Of a stretch of DNA of 42,682 nt, positions 4,530 to 40,972 are shown in pieces. The stretch lies in the IMG/VR virus record IMGVR_UViG_2703718834_000012; one strand, given 5' to 3'. The stretch's first letter is position 1; each line of letters starts with the position of its first letter. Below the pieces are notes generated by a model that saw only the letters and a program-made list of their open reading frames with translations, was not told where the DNA came from and searched no databases. The position numbers and the translations under genes were made by a program. Source of the DNA: a virus. Its lineage: Duplodnaviria; Heunggongvirae; Uroviricota; Caudoviricetes.

Positions 4530-4967
4530 TTAACGTTGCTCCCATATCCAGTAAAACCTGAATTCCTGCCAGTCCTTCCCCGGTGCCTGATAGCGGATAA
4601 TGAGATTGAGCCGGTCAGGCAGGACGATCCTTGCAACAGGAATAACCTCGCTGACAACGCCATCAACCTTTAACCAGTTGAGCGCTTCACTCGAGTATTC
4701 CTCCGCTTTTTTTGCTACATCCGGGGTCAGTTTTTTCCGCCGTAGCAGCCACAGCCGGGATCCCAGTTGGGATTCCTCCCCGGAATCCCCCCACCAGCCG
4801 CGGCGATCGCTATCCTCATAATCATCGTCAGCGCGCGCCAGCCTGTCGGTAAACAGGCTGTCCAGTATTGCAGTCTGTAAATCGTTCCCCGTGGTGAGTT
4901 CACCCAGCCCTTTCTGCCAGTCAGCAAACATCTCATCCACATTCCAGAATGAAGCGATGTCACTCAT
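4530..4967 (-). CDS. Baseplate protein (Mu gp46 / gpW-gp25-like)
   Basis: 145 aa; synteny within Mu-like baseplate block; start overlaps upstream gene. Confidence 0.6.
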   Translation of the reverse strand: MSDIASFWNVDEMFADWQKGLGELTTGNDLQTAILDSLFTDRLARADDDYEDSDRRGWWGDSGEESQLGSRLWLLRRKKLTPDVAKKAEEYSSEALNWLKVDGVVSEVIPVARIVLPDRLNLIIRYQAPGKDWQEFRFYWIWEQR

Positions 4968-24394: not shown

Positions 24395-25447
24395 TTATTC
24401 CCCTGTTAACGCCCTTATTTCCTCCACCGTCTGGCTAAACCTGTCCTCCTCGAGTTCAACGCCGATAGCCTGGCGGCCAAGTTCCAGCGCGATTTTCACG
24501 GTCGAACCGGACCCCATAAAGAAATCAGCCACCACATCACCAGGCTTACTGCTGGCGTTGATGATCTGCCGCAACATGTCAGCGGGTTTTTCGCATGGGT
24601 GTTTACCTGGGTAAAACTGAACGGGTTTATGTGTCCAGACGTCGGTATAAGGAACGGATACGGAAACAGAGAAATGCCGCCGAAGCGATTTGTACTCTTC
24701 GAGCAGCTCTGAATACTTGCGATTTAACGAATGCCACATAGCCACCAGCTGGTGGTGTGGTGTTGCCAGTTCGCCGTTCTGGTGCTTTTCGATGGCTACC
24801 TGCGTGAAAAGGGACTGAAGATTCCGGTAGTCTAATTCATTCGGTAATTGCCACTGGCTACCGCTGAACCAGTGAGACACCATGTTCTTCTTTCCAGTCG
24901 CATCGGCTATTTGTTTTGAGGTTATGCCAAGCGCTTCACGTGCATCCCGGAAATAAGAAATTAGGGGAGTCATTACATGCTGCTTCAGCTCGCTTCCCTT
25001 CTCCGCGTAACCGTCGCTCTTTGGTTTATACGGCCCCTGGTAATGCTCAGCGAAGAGGATGCGCTCTGTTGCAGGGAAGTAAGAGCGCAGACTCTCTTTA
25101 TTACAGCCATTCCAGCGGCCCGACGGTTTAGCCCAGATGATGTGGTTCAGGACGTTGAACCGCTCACGCATCATGATCTCAATGTCTGCCGCCAGGCGGT
25201 GACCGGAGAAAAGATAAAGACTGCCAGCAGGTTTAAGCACTCGCCAGAATTGTGCGAGGCACATATCAAGCCAGCGAAGATAATCCTCATCCCCTTTCCA
25301 CTGATTGTCCCAGCCGTTGGGTTTCACTTTGAAGTACGGCGGATCCGTGACTATCAGGTCAATGGAGTTATCAGGGAGAGTGGCGATGTATTGCAGGCTA
25401 TCAGCGTTGACTAACTCGACACTGTTTATATTTACAGTATTTTTCAT
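24395..25447 (-). CDS. DNA methyltransferase, beta-class amino-MTase (N6-adenine or N4-cytosine)
   Basis: 350 aa; N-terminal catalytic DPPY motif (IVTDPPYF) and C-terminal SAM-binding FxGxG (DFFMGSGST). Confidence 0.85.
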   Translation of the reverse strand: MKNTVNINSVELVNADSLQYIATLPDNSIDLIVTDPPYFKVKPNGWDNQWKGDEDYLRWLDMCLAQFWRVLKPAGSLYLFSGHRLAADIEIMMRERFNVLNHIIWAKPSGRWNGCNKESLRSYFPATERILFAEHYQGPYKPKSDGYAEKGSELKQHVMTPLISYFRDAREALGITSKQIADATGKKNMVSHWFSGSQWQLPNELDYRNLQSLFTQVAIEKHQNGELATPHHQLVAMWHSLNRKYSELLEEYKSLRRHFSVSVSVPYTDVWTHKPVQFYPGKHPCEKPADMLRQIINASSKPGDVVADFFMGSGSTVKIALELGRQAIGVELEEDRFSQTVEEIRALTGE

Positions 25448-29550: not shown

Positions 29551-29799
29551 TCAGACCGTTGATTTCATATTATCAGAAGGTTGGGTTACCCGGTAGCCGA
29601 GACGGTTAATAAACTGCATAAAACCATTAGGAGTAAAGACCTCTTCATCATCCAGCAAAGGCCGCATAGAAACCATGCCATTGACGCGATAAATTAGATG
29701 CCTGCCCGATGAAGGAAAGCTAAACACCACGCAGCCGTCAGACCTTCTTACAATGTCATACCAGTTGTCTTCTGACGTTTGCAAAGCTGAATCACTCAC
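29551..29799 (-). CDS. Hypothetical protein downstream of dinI homologue
   Basis: 82 aa, GTG start with AAGGGAGA RBS. Confidence 0.5.
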   Translation of the reverse strand: MSDSALQTSEDNWYDIVRRSDGCVVFSFPSSGRHLIYRVNGMVSMRPLLDDEEVFTPNGFMQFINRLGYRVTQPSDNMKSTV

Positions 29800-29916
29800 A
29801 TTTATGTTCTCCCTTCGAGCGACTAACAGACGCGATTAAAGATTGTCGGCAGCAGCATCAGAGGGTTACGCAAATTGCGGTATTCTGAAAAATGCGCGCC
29901 AGCCTTAAGCGCAATT

Positions 29917-30150
29917 CTAATAAAACCAGTCGTCAGCGCTTTCCCAGGTATCCTGGAGGATTGATTCAATTTTCTTTTTATCGTCCTTGTCACCACCAAA
30001 AACACTTAACCCATCGGCCCCGGCACGGCGGATTGTGAGCCTGCAATTGTCATAGTGATCATTCAGGCGCTTAAGCAGTTCTTTCTCCAGTGCTGGTACT
30101 GCGCCTTTAGGAAGTTCTTTCATGCGATCAATGGTTAATTCAACTTTCAT
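29917..30150 (-). CDS. dinI: DinI-family protein
   Basis: Start MKVELTIDRMKELPKGAV...; C-terminus ESILQDTWESADDWFY matches E. coli DinI. Confidence 0.85.
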   Translation of the reverse strand: MKVELTIDRMKELPKGAVPALEKELLKRLNDHYDNCRLTIRRAGADGLSVFGGDKDDKKKIESILQDTWESADDWFY

Positions 30151-30168
30151 AATGGCCCCCATTGCATT

Positions 30169-30188
30169 TACTGTGTTTTTATACAGTA
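30169..30188. promoter_or_regulatory. LexA (SOS) box
   Basis: TACTGTGTTTTTATACAGTA, a perfect CTGT-N8-ACAG palindrome, 19 nt upstream of the dinI-like start. Confidence 0.85.
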
Positions 30189-30258
30189 TACCTATGCGCG
30201 GAAATGATCAACGCTTTAAGAGCACAAATTGTTAATTTTCTGTCAGTAGTAAAAAAAG

Positions 30259-30278
30259 AAAACCCGCCGTAGCGGGTT
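30259..30278 (-). terminator. Terminator-like hairpin
   Basis: 7-bp stem AACCCGC/GCGGGTT followed by a T-rich run on the minus strand. Confidence 0.5.
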
Positions 30279-30296
30279 GAATTAGCGATGTTTTAT

Positions 30297-30420
30297 TACG
30301 CCGCTATTTGTTTCTGCTGACAAAGCTCCTGTAGGTTAGCCCTAACCAGCGCCTCAGCGAGCTGATGATTGGACAGCATTAACGCAATGGGTAATAGAAA
30401 CCACAGAATGCACGAAATGG
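30297..30420 (-). pseudogene. Relic of C5-cytosine methyltransferase 3' end (copy A, frameshifted)
   Basis: Encodes ...HCVNAV then, after a 1-nt shift, LAEALVRANLQELCQQKQIAA; about 89 percent identical over about 53 nt to copy B at 30899-30951. Confidence 0.5.
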
Positions 30421-30547
30421 CGGTGGTATTCGCCATCTGTGACAGGTTGAATATTGCTCGAATTGTATTGTTTGCACTTTAACGTTTCTGTTGTAGTGCC
30501 GGATGCATGCCACCGTATGTTCAGGACGATGGCATGCATATTATGGA

Positions 30548-30784
30548 TTACGATTTATCCATTCCCAGGGGATTAGGGTGAATTCCACTTACATGCCAGA
30601 ACGCATGCTCTCTATTCAACTGATTTCCCTTTGGTATCAGGAAGCCATACGTCCCAGATTTAAAAGTGGCATGAGCGCAGATTAGACTTTCTCCTTCAAA
30701 GCTATACTCAGTCCCTTCAGGGATTAGAGAGTCAGTCTTGATCAGGTGAACAGTTCCGTTGATAGGGATCATGTAATGGTGCAT
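30548..30784 (-). CDS. Hypothetical 78-aa protein between the two methyltransferase relics
   Basis: AGGAG RBS 6 nt upstream of ATG; imperfect hairpin overlaps the RBS. Confidence 0.5.
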   Translation of the reverse strand: MHHYMIPINGTVHLIKTDSLIPEGTEYSFEGESLICAHATFKSGTYGFLIPKGNQLNREHAFWHVSGIHPNPLGMDKS

Positions 30785-30923
30785 TTTAGGCTCCTCGTGT
30801 TGTGAAGAGCCTAATTATATCAGGTTTGAATCTACGTCATTGAAGTAGCAGGATTTGTTACACCATGTTCTGAAACTCGGACATTAAGCTGCGATCTCTT
30901 TCTGCTGACAAAGCTCCGGTAAA

Positions 30924-31124
30924 TTAGCCCTCACCAGTGCCTCGGCGAATGGCGGCGGAACTGCGTTGCCACAACGCGCAACCTGCTTGTCCTTCGCGTA
31001 CTTCTGCCCCCGATAGTCCTGATCGATGATGTACCACTCCGGGAAGCCCTGCCAGTTTGGCGTTGTTCAACCCTGGGTTGTTGCGCAGGGCTGCCAGCAC
31101 CTGCTCACGGATTGTTATGTTCAT
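30924..31124 (-). pseudogene. Relic of C5-cytosine methyltransferase C-terminus (copy B, truncated and frameshifted)
   Basis: Frame 2 encodes NWQGFPEWYIIDQDYRGQKYAKDKQVARCGNAVPPPFAEALVRANLPELCQQKEIAA, i.e. C5-MTase motifs IX-X (QGFP, GNAV); the catalytic N-terminus is absent. Confidence 0.6.
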
Positions 31125-31125
31125 G

Positions 31126-31815
31126 TCACACCATCCCGTTCGACTTGTTGCGGTTGTACTTGGCCAGCAGCAGCTGGATCGGCGTCGGCCCTTGCTCGGC
31201 AGCTGGTGCGGCAATAGCCCGGCGTACCGGCGGCACTGGCTTACCCTCGGTGACGCGCCTTTCCCACATGTCCAGCAGATCGCCTGCCTCGCGTGCCAGT
31301 TCACCATGCGTTAACTGGCGCTCGGTGCTGCGGTGGCGCAATTCTACGCAAATGTGGTACATGACCGGCTGCGACCATGGAAATTGCTCGCTGGAGATGA
31401 ATTCGAACGAGCGGTTACGCCAGTCCCAGTATTCGGCGATCACCTGGTCAACGTTGACGCCCAGCGCGCCGCCGCTCTGCTTGCACCAGGCGACGAACTG
31501 GCCCGGCGACGGCAGGAATGGGCGCTCCTGGCGGCGGGCAATGCGCATGCCGGCATCGACCTGAGCCATGGTGTGGATCCCGTTCTCCTGAAACGCCAGC
31601 AGCCACTGACGGCGGAATTCGTTCAGGTCTTCCTGGGTGCGGAAGTTCGCCATGCTGGCCGGGAACGCGGCGCGCAGCTCGTTGAACAGCTTGTTGAATA
31701 CCTGCGCCACCTGCTCGACCGGCGCGCACTCCTGGTACTGCTCTGGCAGGTTATGGGCCATGCGGCTCATCTGCTCGCGGTCGTGGTTACGCATCTGCTC
31801 TGCAAGAGATTTCAT
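31126..31815 (-). CDS. P: Replication protein P (helicase loader, lambda P-like)
   Basis: MKSLAEQMRNHDREQMSRMAHNLPEQY... parallels lambda P N-terminus, with RPFLPSPGQFVAWC conserved. Confidence 0.9.
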   Translation of the reverse strand: MKSLAEQMRNHDREQMSRMAHNLPEQYQECAPVEQVAQVFNKLFNELRAAFPASMANFRTQEDLNEFRRQWLLAFQENGIHTMAQVDAGMRIARRQERPFLPSPGQFVAWCKQSGGALGVNVDQVIAEYWDWRNRSFEFISSEQFPWSQPVMYHICVELRHRSTERQLTHGELAREAGDLLDMWERRVTEGKPVPPVRRAIAAPAAEQGPTPIQLLLAKYNRNKSNGMV

Positions 31816-32720
31816 CGGATCACCCCATAGGCCCAGTCAGTGTTGTTGAAGTCCAGATCTGGCTTGACAGCGCGCTGCTCACCTCCGGCGTTACGCTGCA
31901 TTGTCAGCTTGTCCCACTGCTTACGCAGGCTTTCGGGACTCAGGATGTTGGTCTGCCAGAAGTGGTGTTTGCTAGCCCAGTCATACAGCGCGCAGATGTC
32001 CTGGTGCGACCGGTTGTCTATCTGGCGCATCAGGCGAACAGTGTTAGACCAGGAGGTCATGTCCGGGGCTTTGCAGGTTGGGTTAATCAGCTTCACCCTG
32101 GAGGAAATCCACTTAGCTGTCTCGAGGTCTTCAGCAGAGCCCCACTTCGCACCGGATGGTGTGTAGACCGCAGCTTCAGGATGAGTTGATAAAAATTTCT
32201 TCAGACGTGCGTCAGAGGATTCGTCAGAATTCTCGGACGAAGATCTTTTAATACTGTTCTTGTTCTTGTATTGGGTGTCTACCGTTTTCGGGAAGGTTAT
32301 TCCTGATTTCGGGAAGGATTTTCCCGTTTTCGGGAATTTTCTTCCCGTTTCCGGTTTGTCTAAAATCCATGCTGAAAGGTCAGTGTTTACACCGACGATT
32401 TTCATCATGCCCTGCTTCTGTGAAAAGATGATTTTGCGTTCTGCGAGAGACTTAAGCGCGTCCGATACATGCGTATCGCTCAGGCCCGTAAGCTCGGCAA
32501 TAACCGTATTTGTCACGCGGTCCTGTTTCTTGTTCCAGCCGTAGGTAAGCCAGATCACCGCCTCAAAACATTGCCATTCCCGGCCTGACAGTCTCAGGCG
32601 AGGCTTAAGCTGTTGGATCTCGTTAGCGACCTTGGTATACCCGTTCGACAGGTCGGCCATACGACCTCCCGGTTGTTCGGTTTTATTTGGGAAATTGATT
32701 ATTTCAGCGGTGTTTGACAT
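31812..32720 (-). CDS. O: Replication initiator protein O (lambda O-like)
   Basis: Start MSNTAEIINFP (lambda O: MTNTAKILNF) with GGAGAA RBS; ori iterons inside the coding sequence. Confidence 0.9.
   Translation of the reverse strand: MSNTAEIINFPNKTEQPGGRMADLSNGYTKVANEIQQLKPRLRLSGREWQCFEAVIWLTYGWNKKQDRVTNTVIAELTGLSDTHVSDALKSLAERKIIFSQKQGMMKIVGVNTDLSAWILDKPETGRKFPKTGKSFPKSGITFPKTVDTQYKNKNSIKRSSSENSDESSDARLKKFLSTHPEAAVYTPSGAKWGSAEDLETAKWISSRVKLINPTCKAPDMTSWSNTVRLMRQIDNRSHQDICALYDWASKHHFWQTNILSPESLRKQWDKLTMQRNAGGEQRAVKPDLDFNNTDWAYGVIR
32281..32354. repeat. Origin of replication iterons (ori-lambda-like) within O
   Basis: Four about 18-bp repeats containing TTTCGGGAAGG/TTCCCGTTTTCGGGAA, with an AT-rich tract at 32240-32280 on the downstream side. 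Confidence 0.7.
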
Positions 32721-32804
32721 ACTGTTCTCCGCAATTACGCACTGTTTTTGCACCTGAAAGCCGTTGGTGTTCGAGCACCGCGGCTTTCGCCATTTTTGAA
32801 CCGG

Positions 32805-36458: not shown

Positions 36459-39400
36459 ATGGAATTCTTTAATGTGGTTAAAGCCACTCAGAAATCCGGA
36501 AAGCAAGATGCAGTGGTCTGGTTCACTGCTAAAACCGAGGCTCGCGCCAATCTGATGCTGGATGTTGCGCTGGAAGATGCAGGTATCGAAACAGGTCGGG
36601 GTAAGGACTACGCCAAACCGATTCGCACTGATTTCCCAGTTGTCGACGGCCTGCCGAAAGAAGGTGAAGTTGATTTTACCTGGTGTGATCGCTACGAGCT
36701 TCAGGACGATGGGCGCACCTGGCTGCCAAAAGCCGCTGGTGTGTCTACTGGTTCCGTTTACGCCCCCTACACACCTACTCCGACCGTAATCGTTGAAGAT
36801 GCGACTGCGTCCGAAATTGTCCCGGTTGAAAACCGTACTCCAGCGGTCCGCTTTGCCGTCCATCTGATGAACGATAAATACCAAACCCACGTCACTAAAG
36901 AGCAGCAGTTGGCTGCCAGCGAAATGTCACTGGATGAAGGCAATACATATCTCCATAGCCTGCTTGTGGCAAGGAACGATGTGCCCGCGACCGCCAAACT
37001 CAGCCTGAATGCTGAGTGGAAAATGATTCGGGCGGTTAAGGACATTTTCACACCAGACGAAGAGCACGAACCAAGATTGATCGCTGCATTCATGTCTGAC
37101 TGGGTGAACACCGATGCCGGTGACCGCAATCAACTGGTAGAAGACTGGCGCAGTGGTAAGTTGCAGTTGCTCAAAACTGAAACCAGCAACGCTGCTGACG
37201 TTACAACGGGTCAAGATCTCACTGTTGAGGACGGTATCCAGACCGACGAGAACGGCCGGGCAGAAGGTGGCGTCGTTGATGGTGAAGTCGATACCGAAGA
37301 GCAATCCCAGCAGACACAGCAACCGAACCTGATCGTTGTTGCCACCCTGCCATTCCGCCAGCGCGTACTGGCTCAGTTCATCGGTGATGGTGAATATCTC
37401 TATCACATCGACGCAGGGCAGAAAAATGAGATTGTCCGCCTTGAGATGGACACCGATGACGCGTACGTCCAGAACCTGCTGCTGGCAGCTGAGAATGTGG
37501 AAGCATTCAAAAAAGCCATTGAGCACGATATTCATAAAGTCGTGAATGCCGTTAAGAAAGTCTTCCCTGTCGATGGAAAAATCCCTGAACTCGCAACCTT
37601 AATCCAGTTTTTGAAATTGTGGTTCGCTACAGATCACATCGACCGCGGTATCCTCGTTCGCGAATGGGCCGCCGGTAATCGCATCAGTAGTGTGCAGCGT
37701 ACTGATTCCGGCACTAATGCCGACGGCGGTTACGTCACTGACCGTGGACCTGACGCACACCACACACTGGACACTCTCGATTTAGAGATTGCGTGTGCCC
37801 TTCTGCCTATGGACTTCAACCACTTCGAGATCCCGGGCAGCATTCTTCGTCGCGCTAAAGAAATCGTGACCAAAAAAGAAGAACCATGGAAATCATGGAG
37901 CAACATCCTGCGCAATCAGCCAGGCGTTCTGGGTGTTAACCGCACGGCTATTTTTAACCTGGTACGTATCGCACCGGAAAATATTCATTTAACTCCTGTC
38001 GCTCACCTGGAATTTGTTAACCAGACCATGACAGCCGCGTTCAATTCCGCGGTCGAGTTATTGCCGTTGCATGAGGCTGAACCCGCAGCACAGGAAATTC
38101 CCCAACCTGAAGGTAAGGAGTCTCCGCGCAAATCCTTCTGCACTCACGAAGAGAACCTGCAACGCGTGCGTGAAGAAGGAGCACGCCGCCGCGCAGAGGA
38201 AGCGGCAGCACAACCGCAGAAAGTCGAACAAGAACTGGTTAAAAATGTCGGCAACGGAATATTCGACGTTACGGCTTTGCTGCAGAACTCAGCAACTCAT
38301 GGCACGAAAAAGGCTACGGAGACCACCAGCAATGTGCAGGTTCAAGAAACTGTCAGTGATGAAAAACAAGCTGGTGATGAAGTACAGCCAGGCGAAAGCA
38401 GTCTGGAGTCTGGTGAAGAGTCAGATACCAGCCAGAAGGACGATGTAAACCAGAATACGGATTCTGTCGCCAAAAATAGCGATTCTGTAAGCCAAACCGA
38501 ACCAGTTGCAGCACAAACCGAGCCAGAAGCGCAATCTGACGAACCAGCTGTTGTTTATCCCGCTTATTTCGAGCCAGGCCGCTATGAAGGGCTGCCAAAC
38601 GAGGTTTACCACGCCGCCAACGGCATCAGCTCAACCCAGGTGAAAGATGCGCGCGTTTCGCTGATGTACTTCAATGCGCGCCACGTAGAGAAAACCATCG
38701 TCAAAGAGCGCTCAGCGGTGCTGGACATGGGCAACTTGGTGCATGCGCTGGCGTTGCAGCCTGAACTACTGGACGCAGAATTCAGCGTTGAACCGGTGAT
38801 CCCTGAAGGCGCATTCACAACGGCCGCGACCCTGCGCGCCTTTATCGATGAGCACAATGCCAGCCTGCCGGCGCTGCTGTCTGCCGACGACATCAAGGTG
38901 TTACTGGAAGAGTACAACGCCACCCTGCCGCCGCAGGTTCCGCTTGGCGCTAACCTGGAAGAAACGGCACAGAACTATATGGCGCTGCCAGCTGACTTCC
39001 AGCGTATTGATGGTGACCAGAAGCAGACGGCGACGGCAATGAAGGCATGCATTAAAGAGTACAACGCCACCCTGCCGCCGCCGGTTAAAACCAGCGGCAG
39101 CCGTGACGCGCTGCTGGAGCAGTTGGCAATCATCAACCCTGACCTTGTGGCTCAGGAAGCACAGAAACCGGCACCACTGAAAGTGTCCGGTACCAAAGCA
39201 GACATGATCCAGGCCGTAAAGGCAGTCAAACCAGATGCCGTATTTGCCGACGAACTGCTGGATGCCTGGCGCGATAACCCGGAAGGAAAAGTGCTGGTCA
39301 CCCGCCAGCAGCTGAGCACCGCGCTGAATATTCAAAAAGCGCTTCTGGCACACCCGACCGCCGGCATGCTGCTGACCCACCCTAGCCGAGCCGTTGAGGT

Positions 39401-39848
39401 GAGCTACTTTGGTTTTGACGAGGAGACGGGCTTGGAAGTTCGTGTGCGCCCTGACCTTGAGATCGACCTGGATGGCGTGCGTATAGGTGCAGACCTGAAA
39501 ACCATCAGCATGTGGAATGTTAAGCAGGAAAGCCTGCGCGCCAGGCTACACCGGGAAATTATTGAACGTGATTATCACCTGAGCGCGGCTATGTACTGCG
39601 AAACCGCAGCGCTGGATCAGTTCTTCTGGATTTTCGTCAACAAAGACGAGAACTACCACTGGATCGCCATCATCGAGGCATCCGCTGAACTACTGGAGCT
39701 GGGTATGCTCGAGTACCGCAAAGCGATGCGCAATATCGCAACCGGATTCGACACAGGTGAATGGCCAGCGCCAATCACTGCTGACTACACCGACGAACTG
39801 AACGACTTCGACCTGCGCCGCCTTGAAGCGCTGCGTACTCAGGCATAA
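36459..39848 (+). CDS. recE: Exonuclease VIII, RecE-like
   Basis: 1129 aa; N-terminal segments (TDFPVVDGLPKEGEVDFTWCDRYEL, GNRISSVQRTDSGTNADGG) parallel Rac RecE; C-terminal PD-(D/E)xK-like core. Confidence 0.85.
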   Translation: MEFFNVVKATQKSGKQDAVVWFTAKTEARANLMLDVALEDAGIETGRGKDYAKPIRTDFPVVDGLPKEGEVDFTWCDRYELQDDGRTWLPKAAGVSTGSVYAPYTPTPTVIVEDATASEIVPVENRTPAVRFAVHLMNDKYQTHVTKEQQLAASEMSLDEGNTYLHSLLVARNDVPATAKLSLNAEWKMIRAVKDIFTPDEEHEPRLIAAFMSDWVNTDAGDRNQLVEDWRSGKLQLLKTETSNAADVTTGQDLTVEDGIQTDENGRAEGGVVDGEVDTEEQSQQTQQPNLIVVATLPFRQRVLAQFIGDGEYLYHIDAGQKNEIVRLEMDTDDAYVQNLLLAAENVEAFKKAIEHDIHKVVNAVKKVFPVDGKIPELATLIQFLKLWFATDHIDRGILVREWAAGNRISSVQRTDSGTNADGGYVTDRGPDAHHTLDTLDLEIACALLPMDFNHFEIPGSILRRAKEIVTKKEEPWKSWSNILRNQPGVLGVNRTAIFNLVRIAPENIHLTPVAHLEFVNQTMTAAFNSAVELLPLHEAEPAAQEIPQPEGKESPRKSFCTHEENLQRVREEGARRRAEEAAAQPQKVEQELVKNVGNGIFDVTALLQNSATHGTKKATETTSNVQVQETVSDEKQAGDEVQPGESSLESGEESDTSQKDDVNQNTDSVAKNSDSVSQTEPVAAQTEPEAQSDEPAVVYPAYFEPGRYEGLPNEVYHAANGISSTQVKDARVSLMYFNARHVEKTIVKERSAVLDMGNLVHALALQPELLDAEFSVEPVIPEGAFTTAATLRAFIDEHNASLPALLSADDIKVLLEEYNATLPPQVPLGANLEETAQNYMALPADFQRIDGDQKQTATAMKACIKEYNATLPPPVKTSGSRDALLEQLAIINPDLVAQEAQKPAPLKVSGTKADMIQAVKAVKPDAVFADELLDAWRDNPEGKVLVTRQQLSTALNIQKALLAHPTAGMLLTHPSRAVEVSYFGFDEETGLEVRVRPDLEIDLDGVRIGADLKTISMWNVKQESLRARLHREIIERDYHLSAAMYCETAALDQFFWIFVNKDENYHWIAIIEASAELLELGMLEYRKAMRNIATGFDTGEWPAPITADYTDELNDFDLRRLEALRTQA

Positions 39849-39853
39849 GGGGA

Positions 39854-40972
39854 ATGATGATGGAAAACACGAATATCGTAACCGCTGAACAGCAGACTCC
39901 AAACACGATCTCAGCCAGCAATGCCATTTTCAACGTGCAGGCTTTAACCCAGCTTCAGTCTGTCGCCGGGTTGATGGCACAGGCAGCCGTAACGGTGCCT
40001 GAGCACCTCCGCGGCAATCCGGCAGACTGCATGGCCATCATCATGCAGGCGATGCAGTGGGGTATGAACCCTTACGCCGTGGCGCAAAAGACGCACCTGG
40101 TTAACGGTGTCCTGGGATACGAAGCGCAACTGGTTAATGCGGTGATCTCCAGCTCAAACGCCATCGTTGGCCGCTTTCACTATGAGTACGAGGGCGACTG
40201 GTCGAAATGTGCCAGCAGCCGCGAGATAACCGTTAAAAAGCCTGCGAAAGGTGGCGGGACGTACGACAAGAAAGAAATGGTACGCGGTTGGGAAAGTGCT
40301 GATGAACAAGGACTGTCGGTACGGGTAGGTGCCGTTATTCGCGGTGAAAGTGATATCACCTGGGGAGAGCCTGTTTTCCTCTCCAGCGTAATCACACGTA
40401 ATTCTCCACTTTGGGTATCAAACCCGAAACAGCAGATCGCTTATCTGGCACTCAAATACTGGGCGCGCCTATATTGCCCTGCAGTTGTTCTTGGTGTGTA
40501 CACCCCTGATGAGATTGAACAGCGCACAGAAAAAGAGATCAACCCAACGCCGCAACGCGTTAGCCTGGCTGATATCTCAGGTGACACCGTCACAACCACG
40601 CAAAGCGCACAGGAATCGTCGGTAAATGTCGACTCTCTTGCCGATGATTTCCGCGAACGCATCGAATCTGCTCAGGACGTGGATAGCGCCAAATCGCTGC
40701 GTGCCGACATTGAAACGGCGAAAGCTACGCTGGGATCCGCACTATTCACCGAGCTGAAAAACAAAGCCGTAAAGCGTTATTACCTAGTGGATGCACGCAA
40801 CAAGGTTGAGGAGGCTATTAAATCCCTGCCCCAGCCCGACGAGCCGCATGCAGCCGAACGGTTCGCTGAAGCCGAGCGCATGCTTGCATCTTCAAAGCGT
40901 CACTTAGGCGATGAACTGCACGATCAATTCAGCATCACCCTGGCGGATATGAAACCGGAATACGTGGCCTGA
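39854..40972 (+). CDS. recT: RecT/Red-beta family single-strand annealing protein
   Basis: 372 aa immediately downstream of recE; triple ATG start; sequence of RecT type. Confidence 0.75.
   Translation: MMMENTNIVTAEQQTPNTISASNAIFNVQALTQLQSVAGLMAQAAVTVPEHLRGNPADCMAIIMQAMQWGMNPYAVAQKTHLVNGVLGYEAQLVNAVISSSNAIVGRFHYEYEGDWSKCASSREITVKKPAKGGGTYDKKEMVRGWESADEQGLSVRVGAVIRGESDITWGEPVFLSSVITRNSPLWVSNPKQQIAYLALKYWARLYCPAVVLGVYTPDEIEQRTEKEINPTPQRVSLADISGDTVTTTQSAQESSVNVDSLADDFRERIESAQDVDSAKSLRADIETAKATLGSALFTELKNKAVKRYYLVDARNKVEEAIKSLPQPDEPHAAERFAEAERMLASSKRHLGDELHDQFSITLADMKPEYVA

What the first reader, a model, noticed from the sequence alone, without database searches (positions are those of the whole stretch)
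30297..31124. Two diverged relics of a cytosine-methyltransferase 3' end bracketing a small gene
Immediately after P there is a frameshifted about 70-codon fragment encoding C5-MTase motifs IX-X (QGFP...GNAV...AEALVRANLPELCQQKEIAA), with no catalytic N-terminal domain. About 600 bp away is a second, more decayed copy of the same 3' end (about 89 percent identity over about 53 nt, different frame). Between the copies lies a 78-aa gene with a good RBS. This looks like repeated recombination at a dcm-like gene, leaving direct repeats around an inserted moron.
Basis: seen in the sequence. Interest (0 to 1): 0.5.

Follow-up and report, generated by a model that had tools for sequence, protein, structure and literature searches.

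The report
Methylase gene relics flanking a prophage moron
Two dead leftovers of the tail end of a phage cytosine-methylase gene sit as diverged direct repeats around a small self-promoted gene in a lambda-like E. coli prophage, and related strains show the repeats have recombined and removed that gene; this is ordinary phage mosaicism, unusually well documented.

Summary
The window is a lambdoid prophage about 99.8% identical to phage mEp237, with its early-right genes on the minus strand.

- **Copy A (30884-31051):** the last 55 codons of a large phage C5-methyltransferase, 50/55 identical to an intact 715-aa enzyme.
- **Copy B (30296-30360):** the last 20 codons of a different allele, with a decayed extension upstream. 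It is followed by a terminator, a LexA box and dinI.
- **Repeat:** the arms are 66 nt, 83% identical and 588 nt apart (E = 3.7e-15). They differ by 9 synonymous and 2 non-synonymous changes, so they come from two once-functional alleles, not a local duplication.
- **Copy A is not simply frameshifted:** a 718-bp deletion at a 9-bp microhomology fused ren codons 1-27 out of frame to it.
- **The gene between (78 aa):** a real but very rare family with a conserved extended -10 promoter. Homologues lie next to an intact methylase and, elsewhere, near int/xis.
- **Recombination:** four E. coli genomes carry A/B hybrid relics without the gene, with two different crossover points.

Neither relic can encode a methylase. 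This is a mosaic joint plus a moron: known biology, low novelty.

The parts
31126..31815 (-). Replication gene P (context; upstream neighbour)
   Evidence: ORF list; annotated as replication protein P in mEp237 and in E. coli RefSeq records.
31044..31124 (-). Remnant of ren: codons 1-27 (MNITIREQVLAALRNNPGLNNAKLAGL). The ATG lies 1 nt after the P stop codon.
   Evidence: Identical to the start of mEp237 Ren. Full-length Ren matches phrog_142, Ren-like exclusion protein, at 1.8e-28.
31044..31052 (-). Deletion joint: 9-bp microhomology GCAGGGCTT, where 718 bp present in mEp237 are missing (rest of ren, a 65-aa gene and 79 codons of the methylase fragment).
   Evidence: blastn blocks window 33000-31044 = L001 701-2657 and window 31052-29000 = L001 3367-5419 overlap by 9 nt. 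The sequences are shown.
30924..31124 (-). 66-codon fusion ORF: ren codons 1-27 followed by 39 out-of-frame codons read across copy A. Probably a meaningless product.
   Evidence: Translation. Annotated by PGAP as hypothetical protein WP_001299077.1 in E. coli AR_0118.
30884..31051 (-). Copy A: last 55 codons plus stop of a large phage C5-cytosine methyltransferase (motifs IX QGFP and X GNAV). No start codon and no catalytic domain.
   Evidence: tblastn 50/55 identical to the Klebsiella phage 5 methylase, E = 2e-27. PF00145 profile positions 287-320 of 324 at 17.2 bits. The same stretch is annotated as an N-terminally incomplete DNA cytosine methyltransferase pseudogene in AR_0119 and M172-1.
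30883..30948 (-). Direct-repeat arm A (66 nt)
   Evidence: the repeat finder family D1; blastn E = 3.7e-15.
30814..30840 (-). Promoter of the small gene: extended -10 TGATATAAT (30814-30822) and a -35-like ATGACG (30835-30840, 15-nt spacer).
   Evidence: Annotated as a promoter in mEp237. TGnTATAAT is invariant in four family members, including one whose intergenic region is otherwise unalignable. The generic promoter scan missed it because it requires a 16-18 nt spacer.
30787..30813 (-). 5' leader hairpin (10 bp) that pairs the Shine-Dalgarno sequence. Its 5' arm starts directly after the -10 hexamer.
   Evidence: RNA fold -15.5 kcal/mol, z = -5.8. Weaker equivalents occur in two of three homologous loci.
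30548..30784 (-). 78-aa gene: small beta-rich protein of unknown function, and the cargo of the moron.
   Evidence: phrog_30079, unknown function. Only 2 clusters among 5.8 billion proteins, and four informative hits among 1.84 billion representatives. Conserved positions in homologues of 39-41% identity. AF2 model pLDDT 80.5 with no significant fold match.
30503..30539 (-). Inverted repeat (14-nt arms, 9-nt loop) just after the 78-aa gene. It has no U-tract and its role is unknown.
   Evidence: the repeat finder I1. Only partly conserved in L014.
30361..30430 (-). Decayed upstream extension of copy B. Motif X is still recognisable (CVNAV in another frame because of a 1-nt insertion).
   Evidence: Alignments with ET881, EC529 and L014. 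In L014 the same stretch reads in frame as THCANGIQSPLAEALV....
30295..30360 (-). Copy B / direct-repeat arm B: last 20 codons plus stop of a second methylase allele.
   Evidence: Nearly identical relics are annotated as N-terminally incomplete DNA methyltransferase pseudogenes in ET881 and MSB1_9D.
30296..30436 (-). 46-codon ORF running into copy B. Judged not to be a gene.
   Evidence: No Shine-Dalgarno sequence. The 55-nt segment holding its ATG is absent in L014. Homology to about 20 other E. coli prophages stops at 30360-30362. No family match.
30251..30278 (-). Intrinsic terminator directly after the copy B stop codon.
   Evidence: Terminator scan. The same stem-loop follows the intact methylase in Klebsiella phage 5.
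30169..30188 (.). LexA box TACTGTGTTTTTATACAGTA in front of dinI
   Evidence: Pattern search: 0 mismatches, 0.03 matches expected by chance.
29917..30150 (-). dinI-family gene, the downstream module that carries copy B at its 5' edge.
   Evidence: PF06183 at 4.3e-26; PGAP annotates a DinI family protein.

Best explanation
The locus is a mosaic joint in the nin region of an mEp237-type lambdoid prophage. It holds remnants of two different alleles of a large (about 660-715 aa) phage C5-cytosine methyltransferase gene.

Allele A originally read methylase, then promoter, then the 78-aa gene. Allele B originally read methylase, then terminator, then LexA box and dinI. An illegitimate join placed the last roughly 45 codons of allele B, with its dinI module, behind the 78-aa gene. 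Allele A was then cut down from its 5' side, first to 134 codons (as in mEp237). In the window's lineage it was cut to 55 codons by a 718-bp deletion at the 9-bp microhomology GCAGGGCTT, which also destroyed ren.

Neither relic can make a methylase. What remains acts only as DNA: two 66-nt, 83%-identical direct repeats that serve as homology arms. Recombination between them, or with methylase alleles and relics in other phages, removes or exchanges the 588-bp unit holding the promoter and the 78-aa gene. The prophage's own RecT/RecE pair probably helps.

Shown: the anatomy, the deletion joint, the origin from two alleles, natural recombinants with two crossover points, and the gene's own conserved promoter motif.

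Inferred: the order of events, the enzymes involved, and that the 78-aa gene is expressed from its own promoter.
For: 1. Identity of the relics. Copy A matches the intact methylase at 50/55 residues and copy B at 15/20. The intact relatives are PF00145 members (68 and 65 bits, cut-off 22) and align with a solved C5-methyltransferase (3g7u) over N-terminal, central and C-terminal (QGFP...GN.V) segments.

2. Both native arrangements exist. An intact methylase followed by terminator and dinI is in Klebsiella phage 5. An intact 657-aa methylase is followed 78 nt later by a 40%-identical homologue of the 78-aa gene in the metagenomic prophage L008.

3. Deletion joint. The two alignment blocks against mEp237 overlap by 9 nt and 718 bp are missing. 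Only 1 of 5426 complete E. coli genomes keeps the undeleted form, while about 31 carry the window's form.

4. Two alleles. A and B differ by 9 synonymous and 2 non-synonymous changes over 20 codons (pS 0.64, pN 0.043; binomial p = 7e-5). The surrounding DNA is about 99-99.9% identical to its relatives.

5. Recombination at the relics.
- AR_0119, WEM25 and GPEC60-12-649 carry an A/B hybrid with the crossover in the longest identical block (19 nt). M172-1 carries a second hybrid with the crossover near the 5' end of the repeat. All four keep the ren-methylase deletion joint and lack the 78-aa unit, and the two hybrids compared over their flanks, AR_0119 and M172-1, are about 99% identical to the window there.
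- About 20 further E. coli prophages share the dinI module, with homology ending at 30360-30362 and unrelated cargo upstream.
- MSB1_9D has a B-type relic joined to the promoter and a 41%-identical 78-aa homologue.
- Against L014, the promoter and gene are 92-95% identical (pS 0.08) but the flanking relic arms only 77-78%. This is the 'hit flanked by shoulders' signature that PMC2327257 describes for homeologous recombination.

6. The window encodes RecT (125 bits) and RecE. RecT/RecE pairs recombine 78%-identical substrates efficiently (PMC3945230).
Against: - The order of events is reconstructed from a handful of genomes.
- The hybrids could in principle be ancestral and the A-cassette-B form derived. 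That would require the 718-bp deletion to arise twice, or an extra exchange.
- The M172-1 crossover lies in only 5 identical bases, so it may reflect mismatch correction of a longer heteroduplex or exchange with a third phage rather than a simple second deletion.
- No expression data exist for the 78-aa gene, and the generic promoter scan found nothing in the region.
- The last 60 nt of the methylase survive in every relic seen. That could hint at some selected role that I could not test.
Confidence: 0.85

Rival explanations
1. In-situ duplication: a mobile cassette (promoter plus 78-aa gene) inserted into the 3' end of a single methylase gene and duplicated about 60-100 nt of target, and the two copies have since drifted apart.
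For: The direct repeats bracket a unit that has its own promoter. The same promoter-gene unit occurs at another genome position near xis/int in L009.
Against: - The divergence between the arms is almost all synonymous (9 to 2, pS 0.64). That pattern needs long evolution inside functional genes and is far more divergence than the roughly 0.1-1% seen in the flanks.
- B-type relics occur without copy A or the cassette in other prophages.
- The gene lies natively after an intact methylase with no second copy downstream in L008.
- There are no terminal inverted repeats and no transposase. The repeat is far longer than a target-site duplication.
Confidence: 0.05
2. Copy B is kept because it is functional: as the C-terminal part of a 46-aa hydrophobic peptide (30296-30436), as part of the dinI regulatory or terminator region, or as a small RNA.
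For: - An ATG-started ORF with a hydrophobic stretch runs into copy B.
- The last 20 codons stay open and well conserved in all relics.
- The terminator follows immediately.
Against: - The ORF has no ribosome-binding site.
- Its ATG-bearing segment is missing in L014, and the frame differs there.
- Homology to other prophages stops at the start of copy B.
- There is no Pfam or PHROG match.
- The only Rfam match is at chance level (17.8 bits against a cut-off of 49.5).
- Between the window and L014 the arm is only 78% identical, less than the neighbouring gene.
Confidence: 0.05
3. The relics are selected as recombination linkers (in the sense of the old modular-evolution 'linker' idea): they are conserved because they let phages swap the moron and the dinI module.
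For: Crossovers and module boundaries fall repeatedly at the relics. The 3' 60 nt survive every truncation seen.
Against: - The survival of 3' ends is expected without selection if new cargo enters by illegitimate joins upstream while the downstream side is resolved by homology.
- The arms decay, with an in-frame TAG in copy A of L014 and an indel in copy B of the window.
- There is no sign of conservation beyond what recent exchange gives.
Confidence: 0.05

Closest known systems
Phage mEp237 nin region (JQ182730.1, genes mEp237_043 to _048)
   Same: About 99.8% identical DNA. It has the same copy A tail, promoter, 78-aa gene, copy B, terminator and dinI. GenBank already labels the methylase piece as 'similar to C-terminus' and marks the promoter.
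   Different: mEp237 keeps intact ren, a 65-aa gene and 134 methylase codons, whereas the window lacks 718 bp of this. Copy B is not annotated in mEp237.
Large phage C5-cytosine methyltransferases (PF00145), e.g. the 715-aa enzyme of Klebsiella phage 5 LV-2017 and the 657-aa enzyme of L008
   Same: Copy A and copy B are homologous to their last 55 and 20 codons (motifs IX and X). The downstream neighbours (terminator plus dinI, or promoter plus small gene) are the same.
   Different: The window has no motif I, IV or VI region and no start codon, so nothing here can be an enzyme.
Morons of lambdoid phages (promoter-gene-terminator units present or absent between otherwise similar phages; Hendrix and colleagues, from my own knowledge)
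   Same: The 78-aa gene has its own conserved extended -10 promoter. It is present or absent among near-identical prophages and occurs in two different genome regions.
   Different: No clear terminator of its own in the window. Expression in the lysogen and any benefit to the host are untested.
Homeologous recombination 'hits with shoulders' in lambdoid mosaics (PMC2327257) and relaxed recombination by Rad52-like recombinases (PMC3945230)
   Same: A highly similar block (promoter plus gene, 92-95%) is flanked by moderately diverged arms (77-85%). Crossovers lie inside an 83%-identical 66-nt repeat, and RecT/RecE is present.
   Different: Here the two arms lie in one genome as direct repeats, so the same process also deletes the block. 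PMC3945230 notes that phage genomes usually lack internal repeats.

Membership tests
C5-cytosine DNA methyltransferase (PF00145), as a functional enzyme | C-terminal motifs IX (QxFP) and X (GNxV) alignable to family members | tested here: met
   Copy A is 50/55 identical to an intact family member. Alone it scores 17.2 bits, below the cut-off of 22. The 134-codon mEp237 version scores 30.2 bits. Copy B keeps only the last 20 codons plus a decayed motif X.
C5-cytosine DNA methyltransferase (PF00145), as a functional enzyme | N-terminal catalytic domain: AdoMet motif I (FxGxG), catalytic Cys motif IV, motif VI (ENV) | tested here: not met
   tblastn of the 715-aa enzyme against the whole window finds only the two tails. 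All other hits have E > 1.
C5-cytosine DNA methyltransferase (PF00145), as a functional enzyme | Complete reading frame with a start codon | tested here: not met
   Copy A is entered out of frame from the ren start codon. Copy B is preceded by a frame-shifted, decayed stretch.
Moron (autonomous promoter-gene unit in a phage genome) | Own promoter | tested here: met
   At sequence level only. TGnTATAAT lies 29 nt before the ATG in the window and is invariant in four homologous loci. It is annotated as a promoter in mEp237. No transcript data.
Moron (autonomous promoter-gene unit in a phage genome) | Present or absent between otherwise near-identical phages, and found in different contexts | tested here: met
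   Absent in AR_0119, WEM25, GPEC60-12-649 and M172-1; AR_0119 and M172-1, the two compared over their flanks, are about 99% identical to the window there. Located near xis/int in L009.
Moron (autonomous promoter-gene unit in a phage genome) | Own terminator | tested here: inconclusive
   There is only a hairpin without a U-tract at 30503-30539. The first real terminator is after copy B. The MSB1_9D homologue does have a stem-loop with a T-run directly after it.
Moron (autonomous promoter-gene unit in a phage genome) | Expressed from the repressed prophage | not testable with these tools
   Needs RNA-seq or 5' RACE of a lysogen.
Transposable-element insertion with target-site duplication | Short identical direct repeats, terminal inverted repeats, transposase | tested here: not met
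   The repeats are 66 nt and 17% diverged with a synonymous bias. There are no terminal inverted repeats and no transposase-like ORF between them.
Ren (phage exclusion protein, phrog_142) | Full-length (about 114 aa) winged-helix protein | tested here: not met
   Only codons 1-27 remain, followed by 39 out-of-frame codons.

The most novel reading that the evidence does not exclude
The 78-aa protein may define a very rare, uncharacterised family of promoter-equipped phage morons that travels with large phage C5-methyltransferases. It would move between phages on methylase-relic homology arms and be expressed in the lysogen for a function such as exclusion, defence or control of methylation.

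Its leader hairpin would hide the ribosome-binding site only on read-through early transcripts, because the hairpin's 5' arm lies upstream of the likely start site of its own promoter.
Probability: 0.25. Interest if true: 0.4.

Novelty: new member of a known kind. Interest (0 to 1): 0.2.

Why it matters
It matters little as a discovery. Gene remnants at module joints, morons and homeologous recombination are established features of lambdoid phages, and mEp237's GenBank record already flags the methylase fragment and the promoter.

Its value is as a clean natural series in sequenced E. coli:
- the undeleted form;
- the 718-bp microhomology deletion;
- two different repeat-mediated losses of the moron.

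The series shows relic gene ends acting as portable homology arms.

It also flags annotation problems. RefSeq annotates the meaningless 66-aa ren-fusion ORF as a protein in AR_0118 but omits the conserved 78-aa gene.

Tried and rejected
- **Function of the 78-aa protein:** nothing significant in Pfam and no match in PADLOC. PHROGs gives only an unknown-function family.
- **Homologue search:** the word-indexed search found only two close clusters. The exhaustive HMMER search added two homologues of about 40% identity (P0004, P0005), one 142-aa protein with a 97%-identical match to residues 19-78 (P0003), and several long repetitive proteins judged spurious.
- **Known RNA family at 29700-31300:** only a chance-level match.
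- **Generic sigma-70 scan:** no promoter found, because it requires a 16-18 nt spacer.
- **46-aa ORF as a gene:** rejected, because it has no ribosome-binding site and is not conserved.
- **Target-site duplication or in-situ duplication:** rejected on the synonymous bias.
- **Literature on mEp237:** the first search was swamped by DOI strings. The second found only passing mentions.
- **Technical note:** several loci (L004, L005, L007, L011, L013, L014) were never written to the script machine, so they were compared with DNA alignment instead.

Full report
**What the window is**

The region lies in the early-right (nin) part of a lambdoid prophage whose genes run on the minus strand here. The order is O (31812-32753), P (31126-31815), the finding, a dinI-family gene, a DUF1367/NinB-like gene, RusA and so on. 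The DNA is about 99.8% identical to coliphage mEp237 and 100% identical to prophages in several complete E. coli genomes.

**Checking the observation**

- On the minus strand, 31051-30887 encodes QGFPEWYIIDQDYRGQKYAKDKQVARCGNAVPPPFAEALVRANLPELCQQKEIAA, followed by a stop codon.
- This is 50/55 identical to the C-terminus of the intact 715-aa methylase of Klebsiella phage 5 LV-2017 (E = 2e-27).
- That enzyme and a 657-aa metagenomic relative are clear PF00145 members (68 and 65 bits, cut-off 22). The Klebsiella enzyme aligns with the solved C5-methyltransferase 3g7u over N-terminal, central and C-terminal (QGFP...GN.V) segments.
- A second stretch, 30358-30299, encodes AEALVRANLQELCQQKQIAA, 15/20 identical to the same tail.
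- At DNA level the two form a 66-nt direct repeat, 83% identical and 588 nt apart. The E-value is 3.7e-15 within the window, against 0.48 for the next best hit.
- The rest of the methylase is absent from the whole window.
- The 78-codon ORF between the copies (30548-30784) has a GAGGAG ribosome-binding site.

Alignment with mEp237 gives two blocks that overlap by 9 nt (window 31052-31044, GCAGGGCTT) and skip 718 bp of the phage.

In mEp237 the order is P, ren (114 aa), a 65-aa gene, then a 134-codon methylase fragment already annotated as 'similar to C-terminus'. The window's lineage lost everything from ren codon 28 to methylase-fragment codon 79. The ren start codon now reads out of frame across copy A as a 66-codon ORF. 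The piece is therefore not a frameshifted methylase. It is a ren-methylase deletion fusion, and the methylase part is 55 codons long.

Among 5426 complete E. coli genomes, one (CUWW10) keeps the undeleted form and about 31 carry the deleted form.

**Where the two copies come from**

Both native arrangements exist elsewhere:
- In Klebsiella phage 5 the intact methylase is followed directly by a stem-loop terminator and dinI. Copy B with its terminator aligns to exactly that junction.
- In the metagenomic prophage L008 an intact 657-aa methylase is followed, 78 nt later, by a 40%-identical homologue of the 78-aa gene.

Copies A and B differ at 11 positions in their last 20 codons, 9 of them synonymous (pS 0.64, pN 0.043; binomial p = 7e-5). 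The flanking DNA differs from its relatives by about 1% or less. That pattern requires long divergence inside functional genes. The copies are therefore tails of two different methylase alleles brought together by recombination. They are not a duplication made on the spot.

Upstream of its last 20 codons copy B is decayed, with a 1-nt insertion and CVNAV in place of CGNAV. In the diverged relative L014 the same stretch still reads in frame.

**Evidence that the relics are recombination sites**

1. Four E. coli genomes (AR_0119, WEM25, GPEC60-12-649, M172-1) have P, the same ren-methylase deletion joint, a single hybrid relic and then the terminator and dinI. They lack the 78-aa unit.
   - Three share a crossover in the longest identical block of the repeat (19 nt, GGAGCTTTGTCAGCAGAAA).
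   - M172-1 switches from A-type to B-type bases near the 5' end of the repeat.
   - Both flanks of AR_0119, and the near flanks of M172-1, are about 99% identical to the window.
2. About 20 further genomes share the dinI module, with homology ending at 30360-30362, the start of copy B. Unrelated cargo lies upstream: an ImmA/IrrE-type gene in ET881, and hypothetical genes plus a tRNA in EC529.
3. MSB1_9D joins a B-type relic to the promoter and a 41%-identical homologue of the small gene, followed by a theta-subunit gene.
4. L014 carries the whole composite (relic A with an in-frame TAG, promoter, gene, relic B) but has a different module after B.
   - There the promoter and gene are 92-95% identical to the window (pS 0.08), while the relic arms are only 77-78% identical.
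   - This is the 'hit flanked by shoulders' pattern proposed as the trace of homeologous recombination in lambdoid phages (PMC2327257).

The window encodes RecT and RecE. Such pairs recombine 78%-identical substrates efficiently (PMC3945230).

**The small gene**

The 78-aa protein is real but rare:
- There are two close clusters among 5.8 billion proteins. The exhaustive search added two homologues of about 40% identity. A further 41%-identical homologue is encoded in MSB1_9D.
- The homologues share Y4, P7, K16, P22, G24, C36, H38, YG46-47 and a PNPL motif.
- All four loci compared keep an extended -10 promoter, TGnTATAAT, before the gene (29 nt upstream of the ATG in the window), even where the rest of the spacer is unalignable. 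mEp237's authors annotated this promoter.
- In L009 the same promoter-gene unit lies near xis/int with no methylase relic.

These are the marks of a moron. Its function is unknown. There is no Pfam or PADLOC match and only an unknown-function PHROG. The AF2 model is five beta strands plus a helix (pLDDT 80.5) and has no significant structural neighbour.

**Alternatives considered**

- The 46-codon ORF running into copy B is not a gene. It has no ribosome-binding site, its start region is missing in L014, and homology in other prophages stops at copy B.
- No known RNA family is present.
- A transposon-type insertion does not fit the long, diverged, synonymously biased repeats.
- Selection for the relics as 'linkers' cannot be excluded. 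It is unnecessary, though, and fits poorly with their decay.

**Verdict**

The feature is a pair of methylase-gene relics at a mosaic joint around a moron. It is inert as coding sequence and active only as homology for recombination. This is known biology in a well-studied phage group, so interest is low. The natural series of variants is a tidy illustration, and the 78-aa family is a minor open question.

Noticed in passing
window 30169-30188 and 29917-30150 (-): A perfect LexA box (TACTGTGTTTTTATACAGTA) sits just upstream of the prophage dinI-family gene, so this gene is probably SOS-regulated (0.03 matches expected by chance).
   Followed up: partly
window 30924-31124 (-) and 30548-30784 (-); L010: In RefSeq E. 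coli AR_0118 the meaningless 66-aa ren-fusion ORF is annotated as hypothetical protein WP_001299077.1. The conserved 78-aa gene and both methylase relics are left unannotated.
   Followed up: partly
window 30787-30813 (-): A strong leader hairpin (-15.5 kcal/mol, z = -5.8) pairs the Shine-Dalgarno sequence of the 78-aa gene. Its 5' arm starts right after the -10 hexamer, so it should form only on transcripts reading through from upstream, not on transcripts from the gene's own promoter. Weaker equivalents occur in MSB1_9D and L009 but not in L008.
   Followed up: partly
window 30503-30539: An inverted repeat with 14-nt arms and a 9-nt loop lies directly after the 78-aa gene and has no U-tract. 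It is only partly conserved in L014. Role unknown.
   Followed up: no
window 30548-30784 (-) versus L014 4001-4237: Close alleles of the 78-aa gene differ by 9 non-synonymous and 4 synonymous changes (pN/pS about 0.6). This is relaxed or diversifying evolution, although distant homologues keep a clear conserved core.
   Followed up: partly
window 24395-25447 (-) and 25420-25439: The prophage also carries an apparently intact 350-aa N6/N4-type DNA methyltransferase (DPPY motif). A LexA-like box (1 mismatch) overlaps its start.
   Followed up: no
window 36459-39848 (+) and 39854-40972 (+): A RecE-like exonuclease (1129 aa) and RecT (372 aa) are present. They are relevant as the likely catalysts of recombination between the diverged repeats.
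   Followed up: partly
L008 about 4615-4634: In the metagenomic prophage with the intact methylase, a consensus LexA box (TACTGTATATAACAACAGTA) precedes a stretch with short DNA similarity to the window around the 82-aa phrog_340 gene (29551-29799). No dinI was called there.
   Followed up: no
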